Below are positions 9,035 to 42,243 of a stretch of 46,731 nt of DNA, piece after piece; the first letter of the stretch is position 1; the number at the start of each line of letters is the position of its first letter. The stretch comes from a virus (Duplodnaviria; Heunggongvirae; Uroviricota; Caudoviricetes). A program made the position numbers and the translations under genes. The notes under the pieces were generated by a model. The model had not been told where the DNA came from. It searched no databases and saw only the letters and a list, made by a program, of their open reading frames with translations. The stretch is from the IMG/VR virus record IMGVR_UViG_2529292726_000019; one strand, given 5' to 3'.

Positions 9035-10165
9035 TCACACCGCCACTGGAACCTTGATCCACGGTAGAGGGGCATAGCCAAGAATAAGAATCTCGTCCCA
9101 TTTGAAATCATCCAGCTCAGACCATTCATTAGGGAATATAACGACCGGATCTGAATGCTCTGGAGCCTGTCGTTGCATTAGCTCACACACACCTTCCATG
9201 TGGTTGTTGTACAAATGCACGTCAAAGCCAAAATGCACAAATGCACCGGCCATGTGACCCGTAATCTTCGCGAGAAAATGAGTGAGAATGCCATAGCCAG
9301 CAATATTGAATGGCATACCAACAAAAGTGTCTACGCTACGCTGTACGAGGCAGGAGTTGAGGATGCGTTTGGGGATTCCAAGTTCATCCAGTTCAGTTTC
9401 AGTAACACTGCCGTCCATCTCCAGATCGTATAGCATCTTGGTGTAGATAGACTCATAACCGAGGCGACTGTGTTGAAGACCAATGTCAGTTGCCATCGTT
9501 AAACGGGTTTCAAAATCCAGTTCACGACTCCACAAAGAGAAGACAAAGTGGCAAGGGGGCAGTTTCATATCCTCAAGCTCGCCTACGTTCCATGCGTTAA
9601 GCATGATGCGACGATCGGTAGGGTTCGTGCGCAGTGTATCGACAATACGCTGTAGCTGATCGATTTCACGGGACAGCACTACGCGATCTTCACTGATACC
9701 CAGGTATCCCTCGACTTTGTACCCGCGTTCACGGAAAGTAGCGATCTTGCTCAGATATTCACTATGGCTCACGATGCGGGTATCTTCCCATCGACGCCAC
9801 TGCTTACCGTAAACCGGCCCCAAATCGCCATTCTCATCGGCCCATGCATCCCAAATCTTAACGCCGTTATCCTTGAGAAATTGGATGTTGCCCGTGCCTT
9901 TCAGATACCACTCAAGTTCGACAAGCAGTGGCTTAAGATTTACCGCCTTTCCAGAAATAAGCGGCACAGTCCCACCAGTAAGCATGTAGTAAGAGGGAAC
10001 GTAGCAGGTGCTTAAAGTACCAGTGCCTGTGCGATCATCAGCCTGCACGCCGCTTTTAAGCACCGTCTCAATAACTTTTGCATACGATGCGTTTGTTCCC
10101 TGACCGTTCGTATGCTCACGATTCAAAAGGAGTGACACAAAAACCTCACAAAGATAAGTAACCAC
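9035..10165 (-). CDS. thyA: thymidylate synthase
   Basis: DDRTGTGTLS, LKPLLVELEWYLKG, GDLGPVYGKQWRRW and catalytic-Cys region MKLPPCHFVFSLW. Confidence 0.85.
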   Translation of the reverse strand: MVTYLCEVFVSLLLNREHTNGQGTNASYAKVIETVLKSGVQADDRTGTGTLSTCYVPSYYMLTGGTVPLISGKAVNLKPLLVELEWYLKGTGNIQFLKDNGVKIWDAWADENGDLGPVYGKQWRRWEDTRIVSHSEYLSKIATFRERGYKVEGYLGISEDRVVLSREIDQLQRIVDTLRTNPTDRRIMLNAWNVGELEDMKLPPCHFVFSLWSRELDFETRLTMATDIGLQHSRLGYESIYTKMLYDLEMDGSVTETELDELGIPKRILNSCLVQRSVDTFVGMPFNIAGYGILTHFLAKITGHMAGAFVHFGFDVHLYNNHMEGVCELMQRQAPEHSDPVVIFPNEWSELDDFKWDEILILGYAPLPWIKVPVAV

Positions 10166-10309: not shown

Positions 10310-11179
10310 TTATTTTTTGATCATTCCGTACATTGCTGAGGCTTTAGCTTGCTCAACAAAGGAGGATAAATCGACATCACTATAGGTTGGAGACTTCAGA
10401 ATCTTTCCATCGGAAATTCGAAAACCGATCATCTTATCGGTGCCATCAGCATGGCGAAATCCCAGGTCAGAAGAGTCGTATTTGCAGTTGGCCACAGCAT
10501 GGCGACGCTCTTCGGCATCTGCAGGCCATAATTTTGTCATGTTGGACCGATGAATTTCGCCAACCAGCTCGACGACATTGATACCGAGAAAATCAGCCAG
10601 TCGATAAGTCATCATGCACGCCACATAGATTTTGTTCATTACACGGCGCAGTTCCTGAATCAGCTCAGAATCCTTAACAGTCTTCTTCTCAAGTTTATCT
10701 GCCAGCTCTTCGAGCATACATGACGCCTCACGAGCTTCCTGAAATGGCATTGCCATATCATCGAAAACAGTGTTACCAGGCACAAAAATTGTCTGCATAA
10801 AGCGATCAATGCTCTGTTCCTGCGTGTAATAAGTCATGCCGGTAGAAATACCACCTTTGATGGCGACCATCGTACCAACACCAACGTATAAAAAGTCGGC
10901 CATTGCATCCAGCAGTTGCTCAATATCCCCATTCATTGCGGCTGGAATACCTTCCACTACAGCTTCTTCATGAATCAGGCTTGCACGGAGACGAAGCAGC
11001 TCTGGTGTCGGCATAACGCGTCTCGGATGCTGGAAGAGTTCATGAAACTGATCGACCATCTTGTAAATACTTTCAGTGGCTACACCATGGCCTTCATGCA
11101 ACTCATATGGTTCTGGCTTAAATCCAATGAGTCGATCGGTGGCAAGTTTCAGGTGGTCAGTCAGTTTGGTAAAGTTCAT
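10310..11179 (-). CDS. hypothetical protein (289 aa), possibly all-alpha NTP pyrophosphohydrolase (MazG-like)
   Basis: Helical protein in the nucleotide-metabolism block; MazG-like assignment is a weak motif impression. Confidence 0.45.
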   Translation of the reverse strand: MNFTKLTDHLKLATDRLIGFKPEPYELHEGHGVATESIYKMVDQFHELFQHPRRVMPTPELLRLRASLIHEEAVVEGIPAAMNGDIEQLLDAMADFLYVGVGTMVAIKGGISTGMTYYTQEQSIDRFMQTIFVPGNTVFDDMAMPFQEAREASCMLEELADKLEKKTVKDSELIQELRRVMNKIYVACMMTYRLADFLGINVVELVGEIHRSNMTKLWPADAEERRHAVANCKYDSSDLGFRHADGTDKMIGFRISDGKILKSPTYSDVDLSSFVEQAKASAMYGMIKK

Positions 11180-11256
11180 GCTAGTTTTGCTCCTTCTTAA
11201 TTCTTGTGATCCATTGTGGCCCAGCGTTGCCAGGCCACATAATGCTTTGTATCGGT

Positions 11257-12399
11257 TTACAGGTCTGCAAACTGGCTTAGAGAAGCCTTATCCACGGTAG
11301 AATCGATCTGACCTACCAGATATGTGCTTTGCTCTGCCTCTTGTGGTGCAATTTGCAGTGTGTCGGTTAACAACCACTTGTTCATCCAGACCAGCGGATC
11401 AGTGGTAACTTCTGGAAATAAAGCCTTCAGGCCAAGACGATTCATAGCCAGATTGGTGCGGTATTTTACATAGGTCTTCAGAATATCCGCGTTTAAACCA
11501 ATCATCGAACCGTCTTTGAAGAGATAGTCTGCCCAGTTCATTTCTTGTTCGGCGACTGATTTCATGGTGTCGCAAATGACGTTTTCTTCATCAGCAGCAA
11601 TCTCTTTCCACAATAAACCTTCGCGACCGGTACGCATGAAGCGGATCATGCGTTCAGTTCCTTCGCAATGCAGAGCTTCATCACGGGCAATAAAGCGCAT
11701 AATTTTGGTGTTACCCTCAAGCAACTTCCGTTCACCAAAGGCAAACGTACATGCAAAACTTACGTAGAAACGGATCGCCTCAAGCGCATTAATGGACACC
11801 AACGTGCGGAAAAGCTGACGATGCAAAGGGTATGGCCCCCAGCCATATTCATTTACGTACAGACGCTCAAATTCCTTCTCACCTAACGACTGGCGCTCGC
11901 AGGTCATCCCATAAAGCCTGTCATATTCAGCAGAGATACTGATCGCTCGGTTGATGATTTCTTCATCCGTAACAATACCGTCAAAAACAATGCTCGGATC
12001 GTCCACCATGCCACGAATAATGTGGGTGTAGCTGCGGCTATGGATAGTCTCAGAGAAAGACCACGTTTCAACCCACGTTTCCAGTTCAGGAATAGAGATA
12101 AGCGGCAGCAGCGTTGCATTTGGACTACGTCCCTGAACTGAATCGAGTAACGTTTGATAACGGAGATTGCTCAGAAAAATGTGACGTTCGTGGTCCCGCA
12201 GCTTCGTGTTGAAGTCGATACGATCGCTCGAAATATCAACTTCTTCCGGCCGCCAGAAGAAAGACAATTGACGTTCAATCAACTTTTCAAAATCACGGTA
12301 TTTTTGCTGATCGTAACGTGCCACGTTGACAGATTGTCCGAGGAACATAGGCTCTTTGGTTGCATCATTAGCACCCAAACGGAACGTTGAATATGACAT
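11257..12399 (-). CDS. nrdB: ribonucleotide reductase class Ia beta subunit
   Basis: FFWRPEEVD, diiron/tyrosyl-radical region and overall length; conserved start region upstream. Confidence 0.9.
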
Positions 12400-12481
12400 G
12401 TGTTTTTCCTTTTTCTTTTTTGGTGCGTTTAAACAAGTTGTTATCTTATGTGTTTAAACAAGGCTTACAAATCAAAGAGAA

Positions 12482-12500
12482 GGTGGGGATATCCCCCACC
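12482..12500 (-). terminator. hairpin ggtggggatatcccccacc downstream of nrdA
   Basis: Perfect stem followed by a T-rich run on the minus strand. Confidence 0.45.
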
Positions 12501-12505
12501 ATATG

Positions 12506-14821
12506 TCAGATTTTGCAGGCTCCGTCGCACTCATCTTCTGGCTCGACGGCTACAGCTTGCGCCAATGGATTCTGCGGTTCGTCGTCATCACGCTTTCCTG
12601 CACCATCTCTGGTGTTGTGGTAGTAAAGCGTTTTAACTCCCATCTTGTAGGCGAGAAGCAAATCTGACAGTAGCGTCATCATTGGGACTTTATCGCCTTC
12701 AAAGCGAGAAGGGTCATAGTTGGTATTGGCTGAAATAGCCTGGTCAAAGAACTTCTGGATGATCGCCACCTTTGTCAGATAGCCGCGGTTGTCCGGCATA
12801 TCCCACAGGTATTCATACTGTTCCTTCAGTTTTTCAAACTCAGGCACGACCATCTTAACGATGCCGTCCTTAGAAGATTTCACCGACACCGGGCCACGAG
12901 GCGGTTCGATGCCGTTGGTGGAATTAGTGATCTGGCTGGAAGTCTCGCATGGCATTTGTGCCGTCAGTGTGGAGTTGCGAAGGCCGTATTTTGCAATACG
13001 TTCACGCAGTTCTTCCCACGGCATCTTTAACTCAAAGTTGGTTTCGCCACTTTCGTCTAATGAAGAACGGTAATGGTCGATCGGCAACTGACCAATTGCG
13101 TACTTGGTCTGCTCAAACCAGTCACACTCACCTTTTGCTTCAGCAAGTCGGCAGCTGGCATCAAGAAGGTAATACTGGATAGCTTCGAATGTTTCATGCA
13201 CCAGTTTATTGCCAGCGGTATCAGAATAACGAACGCCATTCTTTGCCAGGTAATAAGCAAAGTTGGTTACACCAATTCCCAAGCTACGACGAGCTTTGGC
13301 AGGCACTTCGGCTGCCTCCATCGGATAGTCTTGATAATCCAGTAACGAATCCAGTGCAGCAACGGCATAGAACGCCACCTCTTTAAGAGACTCCAGTGAA
13401 CGGATGGCTCCGAGGTTAAAAGCGGATAAAGTGCATAGCGCGATCTCACCGTTCGGGTCGTCGGTAAATGCCAGTGGACGGGTGGGTAGGGTGATCTCCA
13501 TACACAGGTTTGACTGGCGGACAGGTGCAAGAGCAGGAATGAAAGCGCCATGCTCATTAATATGATCGACGTTCGCAATATAAATTCGGCCCGTGGACGC
13601 TCGTTCCTGCATCAGAGATGAGAACAGCTCAATGGCAGGTACTGACTTCTTGCGAATTGAATCATCGGCTTCGTATTTATGGTACAGCTTTTCAAACAGC
13701 TCCTGGTCTGTGAAGAAGGCTTCGTACATATCAGGCACATCATGCGGGCTGAACAGAGTGATGTTCTCGCTTCTGACGAGTCGACGGTACATTAGACGGT
13801 TACTCATGACGCCGTAATCAAGATGGCGAACGCGGTTTTCATCAATACCACGGTTATTTTTCACCACCAGCAGACTTTCAACTTCAAGATGCCAGATCGG
13901 GTAAAACGCTGTTGCTGCGCCACCACGAACACCACCTTGCGAACAAGATTTAACAGCCGTCTGGAAATGCTTCAGGAATGGAATAACTCCGGTATGGGTG
14001 GCTTCACCATTGCGGATCTCGCTGCCCAGCGCACGGATACGGCCAAAACCAATACCAATTCCAGCACGACGTGAAACGTAGTCGATAATTGCGGCTGAAG
14101 CTGCACTAATCCCTTTCAGACTATCGCCAGACTCAATCAGCACACAACTGGAGAACTGACGGGTTGGAGTACGGACGCCGGCCATGATTGGTGTGGGCAG
14201 AGACAGTTTGAACGTACTTGTAACGTCATAGAAACCTTTGACCATCTCCATACGTGTTTTGCCAGCGCAGTCGTCTTCCCAATTCTGGAACAGACACATG
14301 CCTACCAGCATATAGATATGTTGCGGCCCCTCATGAATCTCACCAGTAACACGGTTTTGAACGAGGTATTTGCTTTGCAACTGCACCGTAGCTGCATAGC
14401 CAAAAAGATCGTCACGTTTCGGCTTAATGTAATTGCCGAGTTCTTCGATCTCTTCAAACGAATAATGAGTCAGCAAATCCTTGTCATAAACGCCCTTGTT
14501 AACGTTCTTGACAATGTGTTGGTAGAAGTTCGGATAGTCGTAACGACCGAAGGCATCTTTGCGGATTTTAAAAATGTTCAGGCGGGCAGCCACCTGTGAG
14601 TAATTTGGTGCTTCTGGTGAGATCAAATCAGCGGCAGATTTAACCAAAGCCTCATGCAACTGGCTGGTGGTCATCCCATCAAAAATGCTGGCCGCAGCTC
14701 CCATTGCTACAGCGGATGCGCTTACACCACGAATGCCTTCTACGCCATACATTACGACGCGGTTGTATTTTTCTTCGGATAACGGCTCTGTTTGGCCGTT
14801 ACGTTTTACGATGCTTATCAT
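12506..14821 (-). CDS. nrdA: ribonucleotide reductase class Ia alpha subunit
   Basis: 771 aa with ATP-cone N-terminus and catalytic-site region (NLCMEI, C-terminal redox Cys pair CDGACKI). Confidence 0.9.
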   Translation of the reverse strand: MISIVKRNGQTEPLSEEKYNRVVMYGVEGIRGVSASAVAMGAAASIFDGMTTSQLHEALVKSAADLISPEAPNYSQVAARLNIFKIRKDAFGRYDYPNFYQHIVKNVNKGVYDKDLLTHYSFEEIEELGNYIKPKRDDLFGYAATVQLQSKYLVQNRVTGEIHEGPQHIYMLVGMCLFQNWEDDCAGKTRMEMVKGFYDVTSTFKLSLPTPIMAGVRTPTRQFSSCVLIESGDSLKGISAASAAIIDYVSRRAGIGIGFGRIRALGSEIRNGEATHTGVIPFLKHFQTAVKSCSQGGVRGGAATAFYPIWHLEVESLLVVKNNRGIDENRVRHLDYGVMSNRLMYRRLVRSENITLFSPHDVPDMYEAFFTDQELFEKLYHKYEADDSIRKKSVPAIELFSSLMQERASTGRIYIANVDHINEHGAFIPALAPVRQSNLCMEITLPTRPLAFTDDPNGEIALCTLSAFNLGAIRSLESLKEVAFYAVAALDSLLDYQDYPMEAAEVPAKARRSLGIGVTNFAYYLAKNGVRYSDTAGNKLVHETFEAIQYYLLDASCRLAEAKGECDWFEQTKYAIGQLPIDHYRSSLDESGETNFELKMPWEELRERIAKYGLRNSTLTAQMPCETSSQITNSTNGIEPPRGPVSVKSSKDGIVKMVVPEFEKLKEQYEYLWDMPDNRGYLTKVAIIQKFFDQAISANTNYDPSRFEGDKVPMMTLLSDLLLAYKMGVKTLYYHNTRDGAGKRDDDEPQNPLAQAVAVEPEDECDGACKI

Positions 14822-14838
14822 GTATCACCAAATAAAGA

Positions 14839-14860
14839 GGGCCACTAAATATAGTGGCCC
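14839..14860 (-). terminator. perfect hairpin gggccact-aaatat-agtggccc, 18 nt upstream of the nrdA start codon
   Basis: 8-bp GC-rich stem followed by a T-rich run on the minus strand. Could equally be a 5'-UTR regulatory structure for nrdA. Confidence 0.4.
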
Positions 14861-14894
14861 ATGTTAATAGATAAGCACTTACCTATCAATGAAA

Positions 14895-15464
14895 TCAAAT
14901 GAGAGACTTAAGAACATCGCGCACCTGGCGGAACTGATCTGTTTGCATACCGGTATGGATGGCAGCCACCGCATCAGCCAAATGTTCGTTTTTGTTCACG
15001 AGAACATCCTGTCCAGATTGCTTACGACGCAGCCACGGTGCTTTAGGGTGTTTTTTCGTAGCCCACTGGATAATCTCTTCTTTCGATGTAGTAAGTTTAT
15101 TGCCGACAAAATGCTTGATTTCGTTTGGAGTAACCTGGATCAATGGCTTATCCACACACGCAAGTACACCGATACAAATACCGTAAGACGTCTGCGAACG
15201 AGAGTTTTGGCTCCCAACCGGTAGCTCACAAAAAACCATATTTGCCTTATCAATGATTGGCTTCGCAACACGCCATATTTCACTGGCTCGGCGCAGATCG
15301 TCACTGTTCACACGAACGGTCTTTTTGTTACTCCCCGCTTTAGTCTCAACAAGAGTAAGGCCGTGAATCTCAAGTTCGTCCGTCTCAAGGTCTAAAGTGC
15401 CCACAGCAAGCCCAAAGTTGCTCATTGAGGGATCAACACCAACTACGCTGATTTTTTTACTCAT
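14895..15464 (-). CDS. putative RuvC-like Holliday junction resolvase
   Basis: N-terminal VGVDPSMSNFGLAV, ELPVG and C-terminal NEHLADAVAAIH resemble RuvC catalytic motifs. Confidence 0.5.
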   Translation of the reverse strand: MSKKISVVGVDPSMSNFGLAVGTLDLETDELEIHGLTLVETKAGSNKKTVRVNSDDLRRASEIWRVAKPIIDKANMVFCELPVGSQNSRSQTSYGICIGVLACVDKPLIQVTPNEIKHFVGNKLTTSKEEIIQWATKKHPKAPWLRRKQSGQDVLVNKNEHLADAVAAIHTGMQTDQFRQVRDVLKSLI

Positions 15465-15473
15465 ATAGTCTCC

Positions 15474-16217
15474 TTACCATGTTCCCCATATAGGGTTTTC
15501 CAATAATCTCGCCTCCAACGAATTGGCTACTATTGCCGTTTGCAACGTTGGTTGGGGATAGTTTGCAAAGTCTGAATACTCATTTTCCTGCGTGACACGT
15601 TTATCTGCGGCATGTTTAACACCACTTGCTATGAAATGACGCATGATGCCCAACAGCCTCCGACTGTCTGCACTATCGTTTGCTAAAACATGAGGGAGCT
15701 GAAGTTCGATTTCTACCATTTCTCCATACTTACCAACAAACTGTAGTTTGTCCGCACTGTACTTTTTATCCCTCCTTTGGATAAGGAAACCAGTAAAAGC
15801 ATCACCTGGCGATGCCAAACTATCCACCCGCTTATTGGCAAGTCGAATAAGGTTCGTGAAAGCCATACAGTGATGCGCACCCATTCCCCCAAAGAACCCT
15901 TCGCTATTAATGTTAAGATCTTCAGTTTCATGGGATGCAATAAACCCAGGCCCGACGTTGGGAAGATATCCCCCCTCAACAAAAGGATTAATCAGGATCG
16001 GCGCAATACATCCAGGTGGTAGTGATTTCAAACTTTGCATCAATGGCGTCTCGGATATTAGACCAAGCAACGCGGCGAATTGTACTCCGTCAATATTGTT
16101 GCTGCCCCACAGAATACGTGGAGCCGCACCATTGGAAGTATGCCCATTGATCAGTTTTATCGACTGCATCACTGCAAATACCTGCAAAAACTGCGAGCGG
16201 CTTAATTTAAACGACAT
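15474..16217 (-). CDS. hypothetical protein (247 aa)
   Basis: ORF between the RuvC-like gene and sbcC; no motif recognised. Confidence 0.5.
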   Translation of the reverse strand: MSFKLSRSQFLQVFAVMQSIKLINGHTSNGAAPRILWGSNNIDGVQFAALLGLISETPLMQSLKSLPPGCIAPILINPFVEGGYLPNVGPGFIASHETEDLNINSEGFFGGMGAHHCMAFTNLIRLANKRVDSLASPGDAFTGFLIQRRDKKYSADKLQFVGKYGEMVEIELQLPHVLANDSADSRRLLGIMRHFIASGVKHAADKRVTQENEYSDFANYPQPTLQTAIVANSLEARLLENPIWGTW

Positions 16218-18123
16218 AGCTGCGCCCCTCTTTAACTTCCAGCGTAATAGTTTCCCGGAACCATGACTTCATCTCTTTATGGGAGATAATCAGCACAGTA
16301 CCTCGCTCGCGAGCTTTGGACTCCAGAATACCCATGAGGCGTTCAAGACCGGCTGTATCGAGTGCATCGTCAATTTCGTCGCCGATAAACAAATCGATGT
16401 TTTTACTCGCCCGGTTACTAACCAGATCCTGCAATGCCAAAGAACACGCAATGCGAACCTTCCGCTTCTCACCACCAGAGAGGGTCTGGAACGACTTACT
16501 TGAACCTTTCTTCTGCACACTAATGTTGAATTTGTCGCGATACTCACCTTTTTTAGTGACATCCATCGTCGACCACTCAGCAGTAATATTCCCGTCAGAC
16601 AACGTATTGAGATACTCGGCAGTGCGTGTATTCAGGAAAGGCGTAACAGACGTCAAAATATGAGAACGCACCCCGGCAGGAGAGTAGACCTGACGAGCTT
16701 TTTCCAATAGCAACGTTTGTTCCTGAATAGCCTTCAACTCATCTTTTAAGGACTTGAAGGTAGACTTACTGGATACCAGGTTATCTTCGTGTCTGGCGAT
16801 AAGAGCAATAAACGGATTAATCTCTTTTGATATACGATCGACCTCAGTACGAGCACGAGTCACAAGAGACTCAATAGCAACAACCTCCTTCTCACGATGA
16901 CGCAAAGATGAGAGTTGTTTCGTAAGCTCTTCAATCCGGGCAATGATAGCCGTTACATCAGGTGTCGTTTTAACAAGGGCAGACTCAATGCTTAACGCTT
17001 TCTCAAGATTCGTTTTGTGTTTAGCCATTGCCTCTGCAAGTGTCTTCGCCTGACCAATTTCCTGACGTGCTTGTTCAATGAAATTCTCCTTCACCGTTGA
17101 TAGATCTTCTTCGCAGTAGGCTTTGCCACAAGTAGGGCATGGTGATCCCACTTTAGTACCAACCTCTTCTGCTTTGGTCTTAAAATTACGCGCGCGGCTC
17201 ATTGCATCAGCCTGACTATTTTCTGTAGCTTTGATGCTTGCCCGAATATCAGTTATCGCACCACGAACTTTGAGCAACTTGGCGTCATGTTCTTCTTTTG
17301 AGGCTAACTTTTTGCGCTCACTTTCGATTGCCTTCTCGGTATCACGGATCTGTTCGGGAAGAGTGCGGATCTCAAGTTCAACTTCCGTTAACTCAACTTC
17401 GGCACTGGCCAGCCCAGCCAGGGCATCGTCATAACGTTTAGAACGCTCTTGCTCCCATGATTCAGAGGAGGCTTTCGCTGACTCAATTTCTGACTGTGTT
17501 GCCTCAATGGTCGAGATTGTCGACTCCAATTTGGTTTTAACCACATCCATACGTGCGGCAGCTGCATTAGCTCGCTCACGAGCAATAGCGTAGGCGCGTG
17601 TCAGTCTGTCAACGCCAGCGGCTTCTTCTACGATGGTTTTGAGGTTTTTGTCGGACATTCCAGGTAAATCTGGCATAGCTTCTTGGCTCGCATAGATGGA
17701 AGCCATGAAAACCTCTTTAGATGCACCGATCAGACGCTCGACGAACTCTTGCGTCAGCGCATCTTTGCCTTTCGTCATATCGCCGTCTTCACCACGAACG
17801 ATAAGCCGATTTTTGAACTCTTTGTGTTTACGGTGACGAATGATCGCATATCTCTTGCCTTCATCCTCGATGGTTACTGCAACACGACAGTTCTTTTCAT
17901 GGTCGGTAGACAACACATCGTCACCCTTCACACCATGAGCTGTTTCGCCATAAAGACACCACATCAGGCTATTCATTAGCGTTGACTTTCCAGAGCCATT
18001 ACTTGATGCGGAACTATCATCACTATTAACACCCTGAATGAGCACTAAACCACGCTGATCTAACTCGACCTCCGCGCTGGCGATAGCCATAAAATTCTCA
18101 ACCTGGAGCTTTAAAAACTTCAT
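16207..18123 (-). CDS. sbcC: SbcC/Rad50-like ATPase
   Basis: Walker A GSGKST, long coiled-coil centre with CPTCG zinc hook, signature LSGGEKRK and Walker B IGDEIDD. Confidence 0.8.
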   Translation of the reverse strand: MKFLKLQVENFMAIASAEVELDQRGLVLIQGVNSDDSSASSNGSGKSTLMNSLMWCLYGETAHGVKGDDVLSTDHEKNCRVAVTIEDEGKRYAIIRHRKHKEFKNRLIVRGEDGDMTKGKDALTQEFVERLIGASKEVFMASIYASQEAMPDLPGMSDKNLKTIVEEAAGVDRLTRAYAIARERANAAAARMDVVKTKLESTISTIEATQSEIESAKASSESWEQERSKRYDDALAGLASAEVELTEVELEIRTLPEQIRDTEKAIESERKKLASKEEHDAKLLKVRGAITDIRASIKATENSQADAMSRARNFKTKAEEVGTKVGSPCPTCGKAYCEEDLSTVKENFIEQARQEIGQAKTLAEAMAKHKTNLEKALSIESALVKTTPDVTAIIARIEELTKQLSSLRHREKEVVAIESLVTRARTEVDRISKEINPFIALIARHEDNLVSSKSTFKSLKDELKAIQEQTLLLEKARQVYSPAGVRSHILTSVTPFLNTRTAEYLNTLSDGNITAEWSTMDVTKKGEYRDKFNISVQKKGSSKSFQTLSGGEKRKVRIACSLALQDLVSNRASKNIDLFIGDEIDDALDTAGLERLMGILESKARERGTVLIISHKEMKSWFRETITLEVKEGRSYVV

Positions 18124-18352
18124 ATAACACCTTTGATACCGTGTGTTAGCTTTTGACCTTCTTTCAATCTGAACTCCGTATGCGCCGGGAAGGATCTGCG
18201 CCTCAATACGCCTTTTCTGGTTAACCTTCCAAGATAAAACGCTACGGGATTTCCTTGTGGCGGGTAGGGCTTGTGAAACATCACCGTCTGGCCTCGTTCA
18301 AGTCTTTTCATCGTGATGGCAAAGTCTCGAAAGCTCCCATAACGACTTTGCC

Positions 18353-19438
18353 TCACACAGCCTCCGAACTCTCCGCTTCGGTGAGGATTTCCTGACACAA
18401 AATATCCAACTTGCTCAGATCAAATCCGCCGTCAGTATCGTGGACAATCTTGCAATAAGCAGATACCGACTCTCCCAGGCTATCGATTTTGCTGGTTTCC
18501 GTTGTGCTTGCTGTCCCTTCCATCATTGATGACTTACGGATGAAGTTGCACACGACACCTTTTGCACCCATTGTTTTGAGGATGTTCTGGTACTTAATGC
18601 CTTCTTCATCGTTCTCAATTACGGCGCGGAAACGCACGTAGTTGCCGCGAATTTGGTCATCGGCAACATAATCTTCCAGGTTAATGAATTTAGGCGCACT
18701 GGTTTCGTAGTGACTGAAACTGCCGTCCGGGTTTACGATCATGTAACCAGCCAGAGATCCAACATCTCCCCAATTTTGATGGGTCAGCGCACCGACACTG
18801 ATAACTCCAGGAATGACCTCTTTGTGGTTGTGGTAATGCCCACTAAGCACGAGACGAAAGCCGATATCCTTTAACTCCTGCGCATCGATACCGACGTCAG
18901 GCATTGTTGGAATGGCTTTGTTAATGGATGTATGGATAACAACGTCATGATTATCACCTTCTACGCTCTTACGTAATGCTTTCAGATCGCTGATAAGCTC
19001 TGCATGATTGTTACGCCAGCTAATCAGGTGGACAGTCACATCACCAATTTTTATTGAGTGTGGGCGTTTGCCACATACGATTACCACGCCGATAGAACTC
19101 AGCGATGCTGCTGCGTTGGCGCTATATACTGAATCGTTGGTTTCAAGATCGTGATTACCGGCCAGCATTACTACTGTCAGATCAAGCTCGTTGATAATCC
19201 ACTTGTACGTTTCAGTTACGTAATGCAAAACAGAAGGGGACACAGTTCCTCGGACGTGAAATGTATCACCGGCAACCAACATGTACTTACAACCGGCCTT
19301 CTTCATGGCGATGGCTGCTTCTTTCGTTGCTTCCAACTGTATTTCAAGTCTGGAGTTAAGCCCCTCTGCGTTCGTCGTGGAGAACGCATCCCATTTGTGG
19401 TAGTGGCAGTCAGAAATGACGCCGTATGGCAAAGTCAT
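18353..19438 (-). CDS. sbcD: SbcD/Mre11-like nuclease
   Basis: Calcineurin-like phosphoesterase motifs GDTFH, GNHD, GHYH; conserved start region upstream. Confidence 0.8.
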   Translation of the reverse strand: MTLPYGVISDCHYHKWDAFSTTNAEGLNSRLEIQLEATKEAAIAMKKAGCKYMLVAGDTFHVRGTVSPSVLHYVTETYKWIINELDLTVVMLAGNHDLETNDSVYSANAAASLSSIGVVIVCGKRPHSIKIGDVTVHLISWRNNHAELISDLKALRKSVEGDNHDVVIHTSINKAIPTMPDVGIDAQELKDIGFRLVLSGHYHNHKEVIPGVISVGALTHQNWGDVGSLAGYMIVNPDGSFSHYETSAPKFINLEDYVADDQIRGNYVRFRAVIENDEEGIKYQNILKTMGAKGVVCNFIRKSSMMEGTASTTETSKIDSLGESVSAYCKIVHDTDGGFDLSKLDILCQEILTEAESSEAV

Positions 19439-37196: not shown

Positions 37197-38294
37197 AAAA
37201 TTTACACGAATAAGCTCTGTTGATAGACGATCTCCCTTGAATTTGTGGTCAATTTCGTCTAAATCCGGTTGCTCTACGATTGATGCGATGTACGTCGAGA
37301 AACTTTCTAAGGCGTCTCGCATCTCGTCCATATAATCGTGCCGGTCGTAGACTCGATCTATCCCCTCAAGACTGTGGTTCATGATTTTGCGTGATACCTC
37401 CTGGCTTATGCCTAATGCTGGGAAGTAACTACGCGCAGTACGGCGCAAATCTCGGGGTGTAAATGGCTCAAGCTCCATCAGTTCTGGTCGTTCCAGAATA
37501 CGACGTAATGCCTGGGCTATTGCCACTTTAGACATAGGAAGGTCTTTCCCGATTTTTTTATTCGAAGGCACGAGCCACTGGCTGCCTTTACCGTATTCGA
37601 ACAACTCTTCAATACATGTGCGCATTAATGTGCTTAAAGGCAGCGAATGCTCACGGGCAGATTTGTTCCTCTTGCCTTGATTCCAAACCCCACGCTTAAG
37701 ATTGAACTCACTTTTTTTAGCCCGCAGTACTTCGTCAGGTCGTCTTGCGGATACAAGACACAGCCTGGCCGCCCATTTTGTACCAGCGCACACATTGAAG
37801 TAGTCCCATATATTCCAGAACACCCATACCTCTGCGTCGGTCAGCTTCCGCTCGCGAGGTGTGGGCTTTGCGCCACCGGCAACTTTGTTTAGTGACATAT
37901 CGTTTAACGGTGACACGTCTATCATCCCCTGGAAGGCGCACCAGCTAAGGAACTGCTTCATCAGAGAGAAAACGCGGCGGCCCATAACAATTTTGCCATC
38001 CAGTATTAGTGGGTTGACCAGTTGGTTCACCATGAACCTATTAATGTCACTTACTTTTACATCGGCAATGTGCGGCAAAACATGTATCAAAATACAATGA
38101 ACAGCGATCTCTGGCCGACGTCTGGTTATCAGCAGAGATAAGCGAGTGAATAACATGAATGCGTCCGAGAATCTCATGTCATTGCTGACCTGGGAGATCA
38201 TAACGGCCTGCATTTGAGATGCTCTTTCGAGATACTCAATCGCCTCTTTTGAGGTGTTCTCCGCAGCGCGTGCTCTGTCAAAGCTATTTTTCAT
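37191..38294 (-). CDS. tyrosine site-specific recombinase (integrase/Cre-like)
   Basis: C-terminal catalytic region ARRPDE...RDLRRTARSY...MNHS...YDRHDY consistent with the R-H-R-Y tetrad. Confidence 0.75.
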   Translation of the reverse strand: MKNSFDRARAAENTSKEAIEYLERASQMQAVMISQVSNDMRFSDAFMLFTRLSLLITRRRPEIAVHCILIHVLPHIADVKVSDINRFMVNQLVNPLILDGKIVMGRRVFSLMKQFLSWCAFQGMIDVSPLNDMSLNKVAGGAKPTPRERKLTDAEVWVFWNIWDYFNVCAGTKWAARLCLVSARRPDEVLRAKKSEFNLKRGVWNQGKRNKSAREHSLPLSTLMRTCIEELFEYGKGSQWLVPSNKKIGKDLPMSKVAIAQALRRILERPELMELEPFTPRDLRRTARSYFPALGISQEVSRKIMNHSLEGIDRVYDRHDYMDEMRDALESFSTYIASIVEQPDLDEIDHKFKGDRLSTELIRVNFS

Positions 38295-38392
38295 ATGACA
38301 ATCACCGAGTTACGCCGATTCACTGTATAAGTAAACAGTATATTAGGCATAGATTCTTATAGGATCAAGAGTAAAAGTAACTCATTTTCACT

Positions 38393-38425
38393 AATGATTC
38401 CATACATAGTAGGTATGGAATCATT
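38393..38425. repeat. 13-7-13 inverted repeat aatgattccatac-atagtag-gtatggaatcatt, candidate recombinase core site
   Basis: Perfect 13-bp arms with a 7-bp spacer, about 100 bp upstream of the recombinase start. Confidence 0.45.
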
Positions 38426-38561
38426 GAGGATGCGTTTTTTGAAATCTACCCTTCGTTCTAGGAGGTAATATTGAAAATCAAAATAATACATAACAATGCA
38501 TATAAACGTTTGGTAGGGTACAATAAGACAACTTATACTAATAAAGAGGGATTCGAGACAG

Positions 38562-39116
38562 ATGCACTTGCATAAGTTGGTTACACCTGGTTTGGCTTCA
38601 TTGCCGGGTGATCTGTCATATTTAGATATAGACTTTGTTTTCTCTGGCAATGAAGCTCGTAAGGCTAGATACCGTTTAGTCTTTTGCCCTCCTTCTTTAG
38701 ATCCTGTTGCCGCAGAAACTATGCATAATATGTTAGGGGCTGATGTTTATGGGTTGTGTGTATCTGTCGTTAGTTTTGTGGACATGATTCAACTTGACAG
38801 GCAGCAAGAACAGCTCCAGAATGTCGCTCTTGGAGCGGAAGAGCCAATTAACGTATTTGCCAAACCCGAAGGGTCTTTTAATCTTACTTTAGGTGAACTT
38901 CAATACCTTTACGGTACTTTAGTTGACTTAATGCTCAAAGTTGCCGACAATGAAGGCATACAGATTTTATTCTTTGCGGCAGAACGCGAAGAACTGATGG
39001 CCACATACAAGAGATATGTGAAGAGATTTACACAAGAGCGTGGCCTAACTTATTTAAATGACGGAGCTTCCTATGCGATACGAACACAACACTACCCAAA
39101 ACAAAGGGAAGATTGA
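38562..39116 (+). CDS. hypothetical protein (184 aa)
   Basis: Plus-strand ORF followed by a terminator. Confidence 0.45.
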   Translation: MHLHKLVTPGLASLPGDLSYLDIDFVFSGNEARKARYRLVFCPPSLDPVAAETMHNMLGADVYGLCVSVVSFVDMIQLDRQQEQLQNVALGAEEPINVFAKPEGSFNLTLGELQYLYGTLVDLMLKVADNEGIQILFFAAEREELMATYKRYVKRFTQERGLTYLNDGASYAIRTQHYPKQRED

Positions 39117-39240
39117 TTTTAAAACTATCCATGCTAGCAAAGTCGAAATGATCAAACGATTCATGACTGCTAAAGCTGAAGCTGAACGCAAGGGTGAAGT
39201 GGTCTTTAAGCCACTGTAGTGGTTAGCTAGAAGTTATGAA

Positions 39241-39260
39241 AAAGGCCCATATGGGCCTTT
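39241..39260. terminator. bidirectional rho-independent terminator aaaggcccat-atgggccttt
   Basis: Perfect palindrome with A-run before and T-run after, between convergent genes. Confidence 0.5.
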
Positions 39261-39300
39261 TTTGTTATATGTACTATATGTACAAAGATGTGGCTTTTAC

Positions 39301-40202: not shown

Positions 40203-40346
40203 GGCCGTTGTGGTGGCCGGGACTGAATCTCCGGCATACGGTGCAGCCAATTAGGACTACGGACGATCACCGCTCGCGAAAGGGAAGATTTGCGGCCGCA
40301 TTTCCCTAACATCCAAGAAAGCTATCGCATCAGTCTGCGAATCCAC

Positions 40347-40425
40347 CACAACGGTAAGATCACTACCTTTCGACCAGTCATTGTGCACATGAACGACGAT
40401 TAACCGTAATGATCTTATCGTTGTG
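40347..40425 (-). ncRNA. structured hairpin element 1 (stem cacaacggtaagatca / tgatcttatcgttgtg)
   Basis: About 79-nt imperfect hairpin; paralogous to element 2 and sharing the 3' flank gttgtgttg. Confidence 0.3.
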
Positions 40426-40476
40426 TTGTGAAGCCAGATGCTTATCTTCTGGTTGCCTCAAAGAGCTGCACTTCCT

Positions 40477-40565
40477 CACAACGGTAAGAGCACTGGTCTG
40501 ACTCTATCGATTTACGGGCTTGTGGGTCAGTATCGCCGATTCGCCCAATGCACTTACCTGTTGTG
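40477..40565 (-). ncRNA. structured hairpin element 2 (stem cacaacggtaag / cttacctgttgtg) abutting the 3' end of tRNA-Thr
   Basis: About 89-nt imperfect hairpin; does not fold as a tRNA by eye. Confidence 0.3.
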
Positions 40566-40646: not shown

Positions 40647-40733
40647 TGGTGGGGAGTGATGGAGTCGAACCACCCGAGTCGCCATGACAGTAGATTTACA
40701 GTCTACCCCGCTGCCCCTACGGACTAACTCCCC
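40647..40733 (-). tRNA. tRNA-Tyr (anticodon GTA), long variable arm
   Basis: Acceptor GGGGAGT/ACTCCCC, anticodon stem-loop GTAGA-CTGTAAA-TCTAC, T-loop TTCGACT, CCA encoded. Confidence 0.8.
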
Positions 40734-40813: not shown

Positions 40814-41591
40814 AATTCAGCACTGCCAGTATTTATTACTCAACAGTGCCAATCGCGACGGTTTAGTTTCTGCCAGGAAACGCACCGCTACTTGCACTTT
40901 TCGTTAGTGCCAGACGCTTTCGACTTCGCTCAATAGTAGAAGGCAAAATCTTTAAGTAGATGATGTTTCTGAGGACAGCACCTACTTTGTAATTTATACA
41001 ATGTGATGTATGGAATCATTTGTTGTGAAAACAGGCACCAATGGCAACAGTGGTTAAACCTACACAACAATCCTGTCTTCACAACGTTGAGGCCACTACT
41101 CCGATTGAATGTTTGCCCAACATGTTACATATCAACGCTCGCCGGTATCTCTGTGAATAGAACCTTAGAATTGATAAAAATGTAATGGCCTCAACGTTAT
41201 GTGCTGGCTAACCATACCAGCCGGGCTACGTCGCCGCTTTTTAACCCAGTATAAACGACATAATTGAACAAAATGACGTAACAGGATGGGCGGTCAGTGG
41301 CTAAGAATCCGGGAGTCATATGGAGTTGAAAATATACCAACCGCCCATTCTGTTACTTCATCGGAGGGAACATGAATGTTCCCTCCTGCGTTCTGCAATC
41401 ACACTCGCTCAGTGTGTCCCATTTCGGTAACGAGGCTGGAAACTGACCTCGCTGGTGTTTGGCTTATTAGGCTACTGCCAGATAGACTTCTTCGTTTGCA
41501 CTTGTATTTAAGTTCAAACAGTCGCGTCTCAACGAAAACAAAGTCATCTTATACACAAAAGATAAGTAAGTAAATACTTATCAATATGTTT

Positions 41592-41882: not shown

Positions 41883-42031
41883 TTTCTAACCTTTGTTTCA
41901 TGAACTACCCGATACACACGCTTTCCGATGCATAGTGTTTTGGTTTTAAGTTCCTGCTTAATTAAATCACGACAGATGCCGAAGCCAATAAGGAAGCCAC
42001 CCATAAAAGCTAATGAGATGTATGGAATCAT
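41879..42031 (-). CDS. small membrane protein (50 aa, below the ORF-track cutoff), paralog
   Basis: Hand-translated MIPYISLAFMGGFLIGFGICRDLIKQELKTKTLCIGKRVYRVVHETKVRK; ATGA-coupled to the 96-aa gene. Confidence 0.3.
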   Translation of the reverse strand: MIPYISLAFMGGFLIGFGICRDLIKQELKTKTLCIGKRVYRVVHETKVRK

Positions 42032-42243
42032 TTTAACGCTCCTGATTCTACTAATTGCTGTAGCAATACTTTCCCTTTATCAGTTAACTGGTAGTTGGCC
42101 GAACACTTCGTTTCAGAAACGTTTGCAACCAACCCTAAACGCTCTAACTTAGCTCGCGTTTTAGGCTTCCAGTACTCAGGGAACTCCGGCCACTTACTGA
42201 TTTCATGAAGCGTTTCCTTCTCCCGTTTACTTAATACGATCAT
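42028..42243 (-). CDS. hypothetical protein (71 aa)
   Basis: ORF; start overlaps the end of the upstream small ORF. Confidence 0.45.
   Translation of the reverse strand: MIVLSKREKETLHEISKWPEFPEYWKPKTRAKLERLGLVANVSETKCSANYQLTDKGKVLLQQLVESGALK

What the first reader, a model, noticed from the sequence alone, without database searches (positions are those of the whole stretch)
38393..38425. lox-like 13-7-13 palindrome next to the tyrosine recombinase
A perfect 13-bp inverted repeat (aatgattccatac / gtatggaatcatt) with a 7-bp spacer lies about 100 bp upstream of the recombinase gene. The geometry matches simple core sites of Cre/XerCD-type recombinases, so the enzyme may resolve multimers of an episomal phage-plasmid rather than integrate it. 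No obvious tRNA-derived attP was seen, although phage tRNAs lie 2 kb away.
Basis: partly seen in the sequence, partly recalled or inferred. Interest (0 to 1): 0.6.

Follow-up and report, generated by a model that had tools for sequence, protein, structure and literature searches.

The report
Lox-like site of phage-plasmid recombinase
A 33-base palindrome beside a recombinase gene on a plasmid-like phage is very probably that enzyme's own DNA target, most likely used to keep plasmid copies apart, and it is also the seam where cargo genes get swapped; it is a new example of a familiar kind of system.

Summary
38393-38425 is a perfect 13-7-13 inverted repeat, 99 bp upstream of a 367-aa tyrosine recombinase gene (37191-38294, minus strand). 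It is the only such repeat in the window (0.008 expected by chance).

The window is an SSU5/pHCM2-like phage-plasmid (98% to Escherichia phage Cyrano). Searching by the recombinase alone, 78 of 80 relatives carry the exact palindrome upstream. The arms stay invariant down to 57% protein identity. The 7-bp spacer keeps its length but varies in sequence.

In the 44-52% identity clade, both arms change in concert (ATGATTCCATAC to ATGACTCCAGAC). That clade includes non-phage Erwinia and Pantoea plasmids.

All 255 copies in 5,426 complete E. coli genomes are on plasmids, none on chromosomes. The protein lacks an arm-binding domain but keeps its catalytic residues. Sequence similarity switches exactly at the palindrome, and all four left/right flank combinations occur.

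Best reading: this is the recombinase's core site, used for multimer resolution and acting as a cargo-exchange seam. The function is inferred, not demonstrated.

New finding: the same 12-mer (+ATC) occurs as three conserved single copies (32362, 41020, 42032), only in this lineage. Their role is unexplained; they may be monomer recombinase-binding sites.

The parts
38393..38405 (+). Left arm of the core site (AATGATTCCATAC); invariant 12-mer ATGATTCCATAC
   Evidence: Invariant in 112 loci with recombinase identity of 57-100%. Changes in concert with the right arm in the 44-52% clade.
38406..38412 (.). 7-bp asymmetric spacer ATAGTAG, the presumed strand-exchange (overlap) region
   Evidence: Its length is always 7. 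Its sequence is clade-specific (ATAGTAG, TTAATAG, CTACCAA, CTTACAA, TATATAA and others). It is flipped in situ between near-identical flanks at least 3 times. Cleavage positions are inferred by analogy only.
38413..38425 (-). Right arm of the core site (GTATGGAATCATT on the + strand)
   Evidence: Similarity between relatives switches immediately to its right.
37191..38294 (-). Tyrosine recombinase ('Int', 367 aa), the presumed enzyme acting on the palindrome
   Evidence: PF00589, E 6.8e-10, with no arm-binding domain. AlphaFold model pLDDT 87 with an all-helical N-terminus. Best fold matches are the lambda Int core-binding and catalytic domains. R185, K211, R284, H307 and Y316 are conserved; the His-II position is Arg281.
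38340..38368 (-). Candidate sigma-70 promoter for int (TTGATC-17-TAATAT), lying between the palindrome and the int start
   Evidence: Read directly from the sequence. It scores only 8/12 and was not reported by the scan. The TAATAT region is conserved in relatives. Weak inference.
38426..38450 (+). Semi-conserved cargo-side flank (T-run followed by GAAATCT/AAATTCTGA)
   Evidence: A similar pattern recurs in most otherwise different right flanks. Function unknown: possibly an accessory site or promoter element. It is not an intrinsic terminator.
38562..39116 (+). First gene (184 aa) of the variable cargo region to the right of the site
   Evidence: No Pfam hit. It is replaced by unrelated DNA in CMS-2020a and PhiR41_1. 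The Cyrano orthologue CYRAN_43 is transcribed 723-fold above prophage background in the lysogen (PMC9928086). A promoter-like site lies at 38510-38539.
32362..32377 (+). Single half-site A (AATGATTCCATACATC), antisense inside the DNA polymerase III alpha gene
   Evidence: Present exactly in 38 of 39 relatives that reach this position. It forms 14 consecutive invariant bases, including synonymous positions, while neighbouring codons vary. It is absent from the variant-arm clade.
41005..41020 (-). Single half-site C in the non-coding stretch upstream of the tRNA cluster
   Evidence: It is an invariant island (ATGATTCCATACAT) within diverged flanks across clades.
42017..42032 (-). Single half-site D, overlapping the stop codon of a 71-aa ORF and the start codon (MIPYI...) of a conserved 50-aa membrane ORF
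   Evidence: Invariant across clades, preceded by a Shine-Dalgarno sequence. The ORF is conserved at 52-98% identity.

Best explanation
The palindrome is the core recombination site of the adjacent tyrosine recombinase. One protomer binds each 12-13-bp arm. Two sites synapse as a tetramer, and strands are exchanged across the 7-bp asymmetric spacer, which sets polarity. The site is present once per phage-plasmid, which is a low-copy, non-integrating replicon. Its main job is therefore most likely to convert plasmid multimers back to monomers, as Cre/loxP does for P1. Because it sits in the int promoter region, occupancy probably also autoregulates int. Occasional recombination at this site between co-resident relatives makes it the seam at which the neighbouring cargo region is exchanged. 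What is shown: the site exists, its linkage to Int, arm covariation, the episomal state, and the similarity switch at the site. What is inferred: binding, cleavage positions, multimer resolution and autoregulation.
For: The palindrome is far beyond chance: 0.008 expected. Linkage: 78 of 80 loci retrieved by the protein alone have the exact palindrome less than 300 bp upstream, and the two exceptions are a truncated int and an insertion. In 112 of 115 palindrome-retrieved loci, int lies on the same side in the same orientation. Anatomy matches a tyrosine-recombinase core site: invariant arms and a fixed 7-bp spacer of free sequence. Covariation: in Int homologues of 44-52% identity the arms are ATGACTCCAGAC/GTCTGGAGTCAT. 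Two positions are changed symmetrically and the spacer is still 7 bp. This clade includes an Erwinia 106-kb plasmid and a Pantoea 507-kb megaplasmid with no phage genes and no HTH neighbour. Enzyme: there is no arm-binding domain, and PF13356 appears only in homologues below 35% identity. The N-terminus is helical. The catalytic Arg, Lys, Arg, His and Tyr are conserved. Life style: 255 of 255 copies in 5,426 complete E. coli genomes are on plasmids. 926 PLSDB plasmids carry the family, and 893 are non-mobilizable. Cyrano is a plasmid of about 5.5 copies per cell (PMC9928086). There is one site per 108-kb genome and no dif/cer-like Xer site. Seam: 494 locus pairs are at least 96% identical on the left with unrelated right flanks. 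30 pairs show the reverse, for example 75.6% left and 94% right. All four left/right combinations exist.
Against: No experiment exists, and no paper on this site was found. The His-II catalytic position is Arg throughout the family, so activity is presumed rather than known. The similarity switch could partly reflect the edge of a conserved module rather than site-specific crossover. Exchange between sites with different spacers (ATAGTAG and TTAATAG) is not what a strict lox-type enzyme does efficiently. The in-situ spacer flips are not produced by ordinary conservative recombination. The three conserved single half-sites are not needed for multimer resolution and are not explained by it.
Confidence: 0.65

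Rival explanations
1. Int is mainly, or additionally, a sequence-specific DNA-binding regulator. Monomers clamp the 15-bp motif ATGATTCCATACATC at three single sites: inside dnaE, upstream of the tRNA cluster, and at the orf50 start. A dimer sits on the palindrome. Together they repress or block transcription of replication genes in the plasmid state, as the integrase-fold repressors MrpR/SroF do in SPbeta-like phages.
For: There are three single copies identical to the arms, and Cyrano's whole 108-kb genome contains the 12-mer nowhere else. They are conserved as invariant islands across clades, even at synonymous positions in dnaE. Integrase-fold proteins can bind asymmetric sites as monomers (bioRxiv 10.1101/2025.11.27.690993). 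MrpR binds a 15-bp repeated element at dispersed sites (PMC10516654). MrpR and SroF appear among the fold matches at E about 0.01. Tn5401 TnpI has extra single binding sites far from its core site and regulates expression (PMC7157771).
Against: The catalytic residues are conserved, unlike in MrpR. Single sites are absent from the variant-arm clade, including a complete 103-kb Providencia phage-plasmid, so they are not intrinsic to the Int/site system. No promoter-like sequences lie at sites C and D. SSU5 has lost int yet still carries sites A and D intact.
Confidence: 0.25
2. The palindrome is the operator of a conventional dimeric transcription factor, for example the 128-aa HTH protein encoded at 36810-37196 next to int. 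It would control the divergent int and cargo promoters, with the recombinase unrelated to it.
For: The palindrome lies in a divergent intergenic region, next to a gene very highly expressed in the lysogen. An HTH gene neighbours int in most clades. A symmetric site with a free central spacer also fits a dimeric repressor.
Against: The palindrome follows Int into plasmids and clades that lack the HTH gene: Erwinia, Pantoea and Chimaeribacter. The arms co-vary with the Int clade. The HTH protein diverges more than Int (42-69% against 57-90%) while the arms stay invariant. A different palindrome family, AAACAAnTTGTTT, occurs 5 times in the window, mostly outside long ORFs (for example upstream of cobT), and is a better operator candidate.
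Confidence: 0.06
3. The palindrome is an attP core for integration of the element into a host chromosome or another replicon.
For: The gene is annotated as an integrase and its fold is closest to lambda Int. The cargo region is adjacent.
Against: None of the 255 copies in complete E. coli genomes is chromosomal. There is no arm-binding domain. No second or split site was seen in any locus. The one cointegrate examined is fused through Tn3/IS5 in cobT, not at the palindrome. Large-contig occurrences have the same neighbours as the plasmids.
Confidence: 0.03
4. The repeat acts as an RNA or DNA hairpin, such as a terminator, a processing site or an sRNA, and not as a protein-binding duplex.
For: As RNA it would fold stably: -18.7 kcal/mol, z -3.6 on the plus strand (-18.2 kcal/mol, z -4.9 on the minus strand). 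A T-run follows 10 nt downstream on the + strand. Arm changes between clades are compensatory. Spacer flips are typical of hairpin-mediated template switching.
Against: The scan reports no terminator. The T-run is not adjacent to the stem and is absent on the other strand. The arms never show G-U-type or partial pairing in more than 130 loci; they are always exact complements with identical sequence across clades, which fits protein read-out. There is no Rfam match.
Confidence: 0.03

Closest known systems
Cre/loxP of phage-plasmid P1
   Same: The host element is a phage that lives as a low-copy plasmid. The recombinase gene lies beside a single simple site made of two 13-bp inverted arms around a short asymmetric spacer. 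No arm-type sites are present. The presumed role is multimer resolution. The site behaves as a recombination hot spot in comparative maps (own knowledge for P1; for this site).
   Different: The spacer is 7 bp rather than 8 bp. The protein is not a close Cre relative: Foldseek gives E 0.04 and 10% identity against 1e-7 for lambda Int. This lineage has three extra single half-sites. Activity is untested.
TnpI/IRS of Tn4430 and Tn5401 (tyrosine resolvases of Tn3-family transposons)
   Same: The core is a pair of inverted repeats directly upstream of the recombinase gene, overlapping its promoter. The same binding motif is reused elsewhere as single copies; in Tn5401 one copy lies near each transposon end. 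The recombinase also regulates expression. Cargo or toxin-antitoxin genes sit beside the site (PMC7157771).
   Different: In TnpI systems the accessory direct repeats lie within about 100 bp of the core, or in the transposon ends. Here the single sites are 2.6-6 kb away, inside or beside replication genes, and no transposase is present. No sequence relationship was tested.
Lambda/P4-type heteronomous phage integrases
   Same: These are the closest fold and profile matches, covering the core-binding and catalytic domains. There is a weak Pfam Phage_int_M match. The overlap-length spacer is 7 bp, as in lambda att cores (own knowledge).
   Different: There is no N-terminal arm-binding domain. No arm sites, Xis or integrated state were seen. 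The core arms are long (12-13 bp) and perfectly symmetric.
Plasmid multimer resolution sites used by XerCD (cer, psi) or ResD/rfsF of F
   Same: One site per plasmid, with a presumed role in stable inheritance of a low-copy replicon.
   Different: The enzyme is plasmid-encoded. The arms are identical rather than XerC/XerD-specific. No dif/cer-like sequence is present. No roughly 180-bp accessory region is evident.
MrpR/SroF integrase-fold master repressors of SPbeta-like phages
   Same: They have a tyrosine-recombinase fold and recognise an asymmetric motif of about 15 bp or more, repeated at dispersed sites in a phage genome. Binding is monomeric (PMC10516654; bioRxiv 10.1101/2025.11.27.690993). 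The three single 15-bp sites here resemble that pattern.
   Different: MrpR has lost catalytic Arg/His residues, while this protein keeps R185, K211, R284, H307 and Y316. There are only three single sites, all within 10 kb of int, and they are absent in the sister clade.
Integron IntI/attI with cassette array
   Same: A recombinase gene is transcribed divergently from an adjacent site, next to which variable cargo accumulates.
   Different: No attC-like second site bounds the cargo blocks, and no array structure exists. The site is a perfect palindrome rather than an attI. IntI is only a mid-rank fold match.

Membership tests
Tyrosine recombinase superfamily (PF00589) | Catalytic domain with the Arg-Lys-His-Arg-His/Trp-Tyr constellation | tested here: met
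   PF00589, E 6.8e-10. Profile alignment to lambda Int maps R185=R212, R284=R311, H307=H333 and Y316=Y342. K211 is nearly invariant. His-II (H308) is Arg281 throughout the family. So five of six positions are canonical and one is a basic substitution.
Simple-site recombinase systems (Cre/loxP, Flp/FRT type) | Site made of two inverted protein-binding arms of about 13 bp flanking a 6-8-bp asymmetric spacer, with no arm-type sites | tested here: met
   The site is 13-7-13, with invariant arms and a fixed 7-bp variable spacer across more than 130 loci. No other repeats lie within the intergenic region.
Simple-site recombinase systems (Cre/loxP, Flp/FRT type) | Site specificity co-evolves with the recombinase | tested here: met
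   Arms ATGATTCCATAC go with Int of 57-100% identity. Arms ATGACTCCAGAC go with Int of 44-52% identity. Both arms change together.
Simple-site recombinase systems (Cre/loxP, Flp/FRT type) | The enzyme alone recombines two sites (deletion, inversion or fusion according to orientation) | not testable with these tools
   Only indirect evidence exists: similarity switches and a four-combination pattern at the site.
Cre family proper (homology to P1 Cre) | Sequence or structure closest to Cre | tested here: not met
   Cre chains rank 40th or lower in the Foldseek PDB search, at E 0.04 and 10% identity. Lambda Int, Tn1549 Int, XerH and IntI rank higher. There is no PDB sequence hit.
Plasmid/phage-plasmid multimer resolution system | Carried by an autonomously replicating element, with one site per replicon | tested here: met
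   255 of 255 E. coli copies are on plasmids. One palindrome occurs in the 108-kb Cyrano genome and one in the 103-kb Providencia plasmid. 926 PLSDB plasmids carry the family.
Plasmid/phage-plasmid multimer resolution system | Loss of the enzyme or site causes multimer accumulation and instability | not testable with these tools
   Requires genetics in Cyrano/pLF82 or a similar element.
Heteronomous phage integrases (lambda/P4 type) with complex attP | N-terminal arm-binding domain and arm-type sites flanking the core | tested here: not met
   No PF13356 or DUF4102 hit was found, and such domains appear only in homologues below 35% identity. The modelled N-terminus is all-helical.
Heteronomous phage integrases (lambda/P4 type) with complex attP | The element is found integrated, with the site split into attL and attR | tested here: not met
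   No chromosomal copies were found in 5,426 E. coli genomes. Neighbours are the same in large contigs.
Integrase-fold repressors (MrpR/SroF) | Loss of catalytic residues, with no recombination | tested here: not met
   Catalytic residues are conserved, in contrast to MrpR (PMC10516654).
Integrase-fold repressors (MrpR/SroF) | Asymmetric motif of about 15 bp repeated at dispersed sites in the phage genome | tested here: inconclusive
   There are three conserved single sites with the consensus ATGATTCCATACATC. They lie in or beside genes rather than at recognisable promoters, and they are absent in the sister clade. Binding is untested.
Integron (IntI/attI/attC) | Cargo units each bounded by an attC-type site | tested here: not met
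   Variable blocks in CMS-2020a, PhiR41_1 and the Klebsiella relatives have no second palindrome or motif at their far ends.
Intrinsic terminator | G+C-rich stem directly followed by a U-tract | tested here: not met
   The scan finds none in 38200-38700. The stem is A+T-rich and the T-run starts 10 nt after it.

The most novel reading that the evidence does not exclude
In the SSU5/pHCM2/pKpn lineage, a catalytically intact resolution-type recombinase has also been recruited as a monomeric site-specific DNA-binding regulator. Three invariant 15-bp half-sites (inside the phage DNA polymerase gene, ahead of the tRNA cluster, and on the start codon of a small membrane-protein gene) would let Int read or throttle the replication module in the plasmid state. 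This would be a living intermediate between recombinases and the integrase-fold phage repressors (MrpR/SroF).
Probability: 0.25. Interest if true: 0.75.

Novelty: new member of a known kind. Interest (0 to 1): 0.45.

Why it matters
This recombinase/site pair is carried by a very common group of enterobacterial phage-plasmids. It is present in 252 of 5,426 complete E. coli genomes and in 926 PLSDB plasmids. A 108-kb plasmid-size Yersinia pestis contig and many plasmids of Klebsiella, Salmonella and Enterobacter also carry it. Members of this group are known carriers of resistance genes (PMC9600943).

Identifying the site has three uses. First, it explains why the 'integrase' of elements that never integrate is conserved. 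Second, it marks the exact seam beside which cargo (toxin-antitoxin pairs, colicins, metabolic operons, highly expressed morons) is exchanged. Third, it offers natural, apparently orthogonal recombinase/site pairs (ATGATTCCATAC and ATGACTCCAGAC arms, with many spacers) that could be tested as new genome-engineering tools.

The conserved single half-sites, if bound by Int, would show an active recombinase doubling as a regulator.

Tried and rejected
- **Invertible or excisable segment between half-sites A, C, D and the palindrome.** Rejected. Inversion between A and D would split dnaE. The sequences after the single arms (ATC...) do not match any palindrome spacer, and no second degenerate arm exists.
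- **Replication fork trap or KOPS-like polarity.** All left copies are + and all right copies are -. However, only three orthologous sites exist, so the orientation pattern has p of about 0.13-0.25. GC skew shows no switch. Dropped.
- **A fourth site inside int at -716 (TTGATTCCATACAT in many relatives).** It does not co-vary with the arms and is degenerate in the window, so it is a coding coincidence.
- **Int-mediated cointegrates.** The 324-kb ET350 plasmid is fused through Tn3/IS5 in cobT, not at the palindrome.
- **Scan for variant single sites with a 14-mer in IMG/VR.** Only chance hits in unrelated contigs were returned. This was replaced by scanning a complete Providencia plasmid.
- **Rfam.** Only tRNAs were found near the region.
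- **Literature.** No paper mentions the motif or assigns a function to this integrase. One possibly relevant 2026 preprint on phage-plasmid heteroresistance could not be opened.
- **Sequence search of Int against the PDB.** A single-sequence search found nothing; the profile and fold searches did.

Full report
**Observation.** Positions 38393-38425 read AATGATTCCATAC-ATAGTAG-GTATGGAATCATT, a perfect 13-bp inverted repeat around a 7-bp spacer. It starts 99 bp upstream of a 367-aa ORF on the minus strand (37191..38294). The palindrome lies in the gap between that ORF and a plus-strand ORF at 38562..39116. It is the only perfect inverted repeat in the window with arms of at least 13 and a spacer of at most 10; 0.008 are expected by chance. 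Four tRNA genes lie 1.7-2.4 kb to the right.

**What the element is.** The region is 98% identical to Escherichia phage Cyrano. Cyrano is the SSU5-like phage-plasmid pLF82 of E. coli LF82, with about 5.5 copies per cell (PMC9928086). The region is 95-99.8% identical to three other E. coli phage-plasmid records and about 74% identical to Klebsiella phage-plasmids. The ORF is a tyrosine recombinase (PF00589, E 6.8e-10) with a weak match to the central domain of P4-type integrases and no arm-binding domain. An AlphaFold model (pLDDT 87) has an all-helical N-terminus. Its best solved-structure matches are the core-binding and catalytic domains of lambda Int, followed by Tn1549 Int, XerH and IntI. 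Cre ranks far lower. A profile alignment to lambda Int maps R185, R284, H307 and Y316 onto R212, R311, H333 and Y342. K211 is nearly invariant. The His-II position is Arg281 in the whole family. The enzyme therefore looks catalytically competent, but this is not proven.

**Linkage of the palindrome to the recombinase.** Searching public viral contigs and species-representative genomes for the two 12-mers separated by any 7 bases gave 101 and 7 loci. In 112 of 115 loci (these 108 plus the window and six phage records) an Int homologue of 57-100% identity lies on the same side in the same orientation. It sits 96-101 bp away, or 44-47 bp in the 57-61% clade. That search is biased by the palindrome, so I repeated it starting from the protein. 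Of the 80 best Int loci, 78 have the exact palindrome within 300 bp upstream. The two exceptions are an N-terminally truncated int and a locus with inserted DNA. The arms never vary. The spacer is always 7 bp, but its sequence differs by clade (ATAGTAG, TTAATAG, CTACCAA, CTTACAA, TATATAA, TTACATA, CTTCCAA and others).

**Covariation.** Int homologues of 44-52% identity occur in Xenorhabdus, Providencia, Erwinia and Pantoea. Upstream of each int examined there is a palindrome of the same geometry with arms ATGACTCCAGAC/GTCTGGAGTCAT. Two arm positions have changed, in both arms, and the spacer is still 7 bp. Eight more such loci were found in viral contigs. Two of the hosts are non-phage plasmids: an Erwinia 106-kb plasmid and a Pantoea vagans 507-kb megaplasmid. 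Neither has the neighbouring HTH gene or any phage gene. Chimaeribacter elements (57% Int, same arms as the window) also lack a detectable HTH homologue and carry sugar-metabolism cargo beside the site. The palindrome therefore travels and evolves with the recombinase, not with the phage backbone or the HTH protein.

**Integration or plasmid maintenance.** In 5,426 complete E. coli genomes the int-plus-palindrome module occurs in 252 genomes at 255 places. All of these are on plasmids and none is on a chromosome. In PLSDB, 926 plasmids carry the family, and 893 are typed non-mobilizable. Cyrano (108 kb) and a complete Providencia phage-plasmid (103 kb) each have exactly one palindrome. Cyrano has no dif/cer-like Xer site. 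A simple-site recombinase lacking an arm-binding domain, on a low-copy replicon that is never seen integrated, fits a multimer-resolution role like Cre/loxP of P1. This role is an inference.

**The site as a recombination seam.** Homology between the window and CMS-2020a or PhiR41_1 ends at base 38425, the last base of the palindrome. Beyond it, 0.9 kb and 5.3 kb of the window are replaced by unrelated DNA. Among 105 loci with 500 bp on each side, 494 pairs are at least 96% identical on the int side but unrelated on the other side. Thirty pairs show the reverse. For example, CMS-2020a and L041 are 75.6% identical on the left and 94% on the right, and the alignment begins at the first base after the arm. 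All four combinations of two left types and two right types exist (window, L001, L041, L020), and the spacer stays with the int side. Near-identical E. coli-clade int modules are joined to seven different right flanks. This is what repeated crossover at or in the right arm would produce. It is also partly what any edge of a conserved module would look like, so I count it as supporting rather than decisive. The right side is cargo in every clade. In this window it is a 184-aa ORF whose Cyrano orthologue is transcribed 723-fold above prophage background. Elsewhere it is toxin-antitoxin pairs and a colicin or metabolic genes.

**Spacer flips.** PhiR41_1 has CTACTAT where its near-twin L052 and the window have ATAGTAG, with identical flanks on both sides. 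TTAATAG and CTATTAA show the same pattern, as do GTAATTA and TAATTAC in the variant-arm clade. These are at least three independent in-situ inversions of the 7-bp spacer. Ordinary conservative recombination does not do this. Template switching across the hairpin is the usual cause of such flips (own knowledge). A flip is neutral for resolving a plasmid's own dimers but would change compatibility between relatives.

**Single half-sites, a new observation.** The exact 13-mer occurs three more times in the window: 32362 (+), 41008 (-) and 42020 (-). In the whole Cyrano genome the 12-mer occurs only at these places and in the palindrome.
- Site A lies antisense inside the DNA polymerase III alpha gene.
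- Site C lies in the non-coding stretch upstream of the tRNA cluster.
- Site D covers the stop codon of a 71-aa ORF and the start codon of a conserved 50-aa membrane ORF.
- All three extend to ATGATTCCATACATC.
- They are conserved in the E. coli, 85%, Klebsiella and 60% Int clades while their flanks diverge.
- 38 of 39 loci that reach site A have it exactly.
- In dnaE the motif forms the only run of 14 invariant bases, and the two preceding codons change amino acid (MR, NG, KG, GG) while mostly keeping the motif bases they carry.

The sites are not general to the system. Xenorhabdus and Providencia phage-plasmids with variant arms have no single copies of either motif, even across a complete genome. 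SSU5 itself has lost the block carrying orf70, the HTH gene, int, the palindrome and the adjacent cargo, so that cobT lies next to tRNA-Asn. It still has A and D exactly, and C with one mismatch. A tyrosine-recombinase protomer naturally clamps one arm, so monomer Int binding is the simplest link. Precedents exist in Tn5401 TnpI (extra single sites near the transposon ends; PMC7157771) and in the monomeric integrase-fold repressors MrpR/SroF. I could not test binding. The uniform orientation of the sites rests on only three orthologous sites and is not significant.

**Rivals.**
- An HTH operator is unlikely, for the reasons given under covariation. A different palindrome family, AAACAAnTTGTTT, is a better operator candidate.
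- An attP is contradicted by the plasmid-only distribution and the missing arm-binding domain.
- A terminator or RNA hairpin is not supported by the scan, by the position of the T-run, or by the strictly exact complementarity of the arms.
- A purely regulatory, non-recombining Int is contradicted by the conserved catalytic residues, but a dual role remains open.

**Verdict.** This is an undescribed member of a known kind: a plasmid-borne tyrosine recombinase with a simple lox-like core site. It is closest in logic to Cre/loxP and TnpI/IRS, and closest in ancestry to lambda/P4-type integrases that have lost the arm-binding domain. My confidence that the palindrome is Int's cognate core site is about 0.85. 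My confidence that multimer resolution is its main job is about 0.55.

Noticed in passing
window 32362-32377 (+), 41005-41020 (-), 42017-42032 (-): There are three single copies of the palindrome arm, extended to ATGATTCCATACATC. They lie inside dnaE (antisense), upstream of the tRNA cluster, and on the start codon of a 50-aa ORF. They are invariant across clades but absent from the variant-arm sister clade. In the E. coli clade, sites A and D share 20 identical bases (AATGATTCCATACATCTCAT).
   Followed up: yes
L002 (PhiR41_1) 9682-9714 vs window 38393-38425; L054/L115; L246 vs L247: The 7-bp spacer is inverted in situ between otherwise identical flanks, in at least three independent cases. 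The mechanism is unknown; hairpin-mediated template switching is suspected.
   Followed up: partly
L118 (Salmonella phage SSU5, JQ965645) 17386-17551: SSU5 lacks the block carrying orf70, HTH128, int, the palindrome and the adjacent cargo, so cobT abuts tRNA-Asn. This is consistent with SSU5 being described as virulent, and with the HTH protein (CYRAN_45 homologue) being a lysogeny factor.
   Followed up: partly
window 698, 1427, 12431, 23869, 36267: A second repeated motif family, the palindrome AAACAAnTTGTTT (often extended to ...TTTTCT), occurs 5 times against 0.25 expected. It lies mostly outside long ORFs, for example upstream of cobT. It is a candidate operator or promoter element of the phage-plasmid.
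   Followed up: no
window 677, 12397, 19436, 23369, 24976, 28444, 32625, 34041, 46297 (all + strand): A third motif, CATGTGTTTTTC (GAAAAACACATG on the minus strand), occurs 9 times against 0.4 expected. At least two copies contain the ATG of minus-strand genes (dnaE, cobS-like), so it looks like a conserved translation-initiation leader.
   Followed up: no
window 36810-37196 (+) and 37191-38294 (-): The 128-aa HTH gene and int are convergent and overlap by 6 bp at their 3' ends. The HTH protein diverges faster than Int (42-69% against 57-90% identity across clades) and is undetectable next to int in the Chimaeribacter, Erwinia and Pantoea elements.
   Followed up: partly
window 38426-38450 and equivalents in relatives: A semi-conserved cargo-side flank (a T-run followed by GAAATCT/AAATTCTGA) persists next to the palindrome even where the rest of the right flank is unrelated. 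It could be an accessory site or a promoter element.
   Followed up: no
window 40203-40560 and 40647-40733: Relative to Cyrano, the window has about 360 extra bases between tRNA-Ser and tRNA-Thr, plus an additional tRNA-Tyr. Long inverted repeats flank tRNA-Ser (40036-40055/40094-40113 and 40344-40366/40406-40428).
   Followed up: no
L119 13481-15802 (Xenorhabdus phage-plasmid): The CobS-like AAA_5 ATPase gene carries a LAGLIDADG_3 domain, probably an intein or homing-endonuclease insertion. This is absent from the window's orthologue.
   Followed up: no
L334 (E. coli ET350 plasmid, 324 kb) 10684-19035: A phage-plasmid of this family is fused into a 324-kb plasmid through Tn3-like and IS5 elements that truncate the cobT-like gene. 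This cointegration is independent of the palindrome.
   Followed up: partly
window 39239-39262: A perfect palindrome AAAAAGGCCCATATGGGCCTTTTT lies between the 184-aa cargo ORF and the glutaredoxin gene. It looks like a bidirectional terminator.
   Followed up: no
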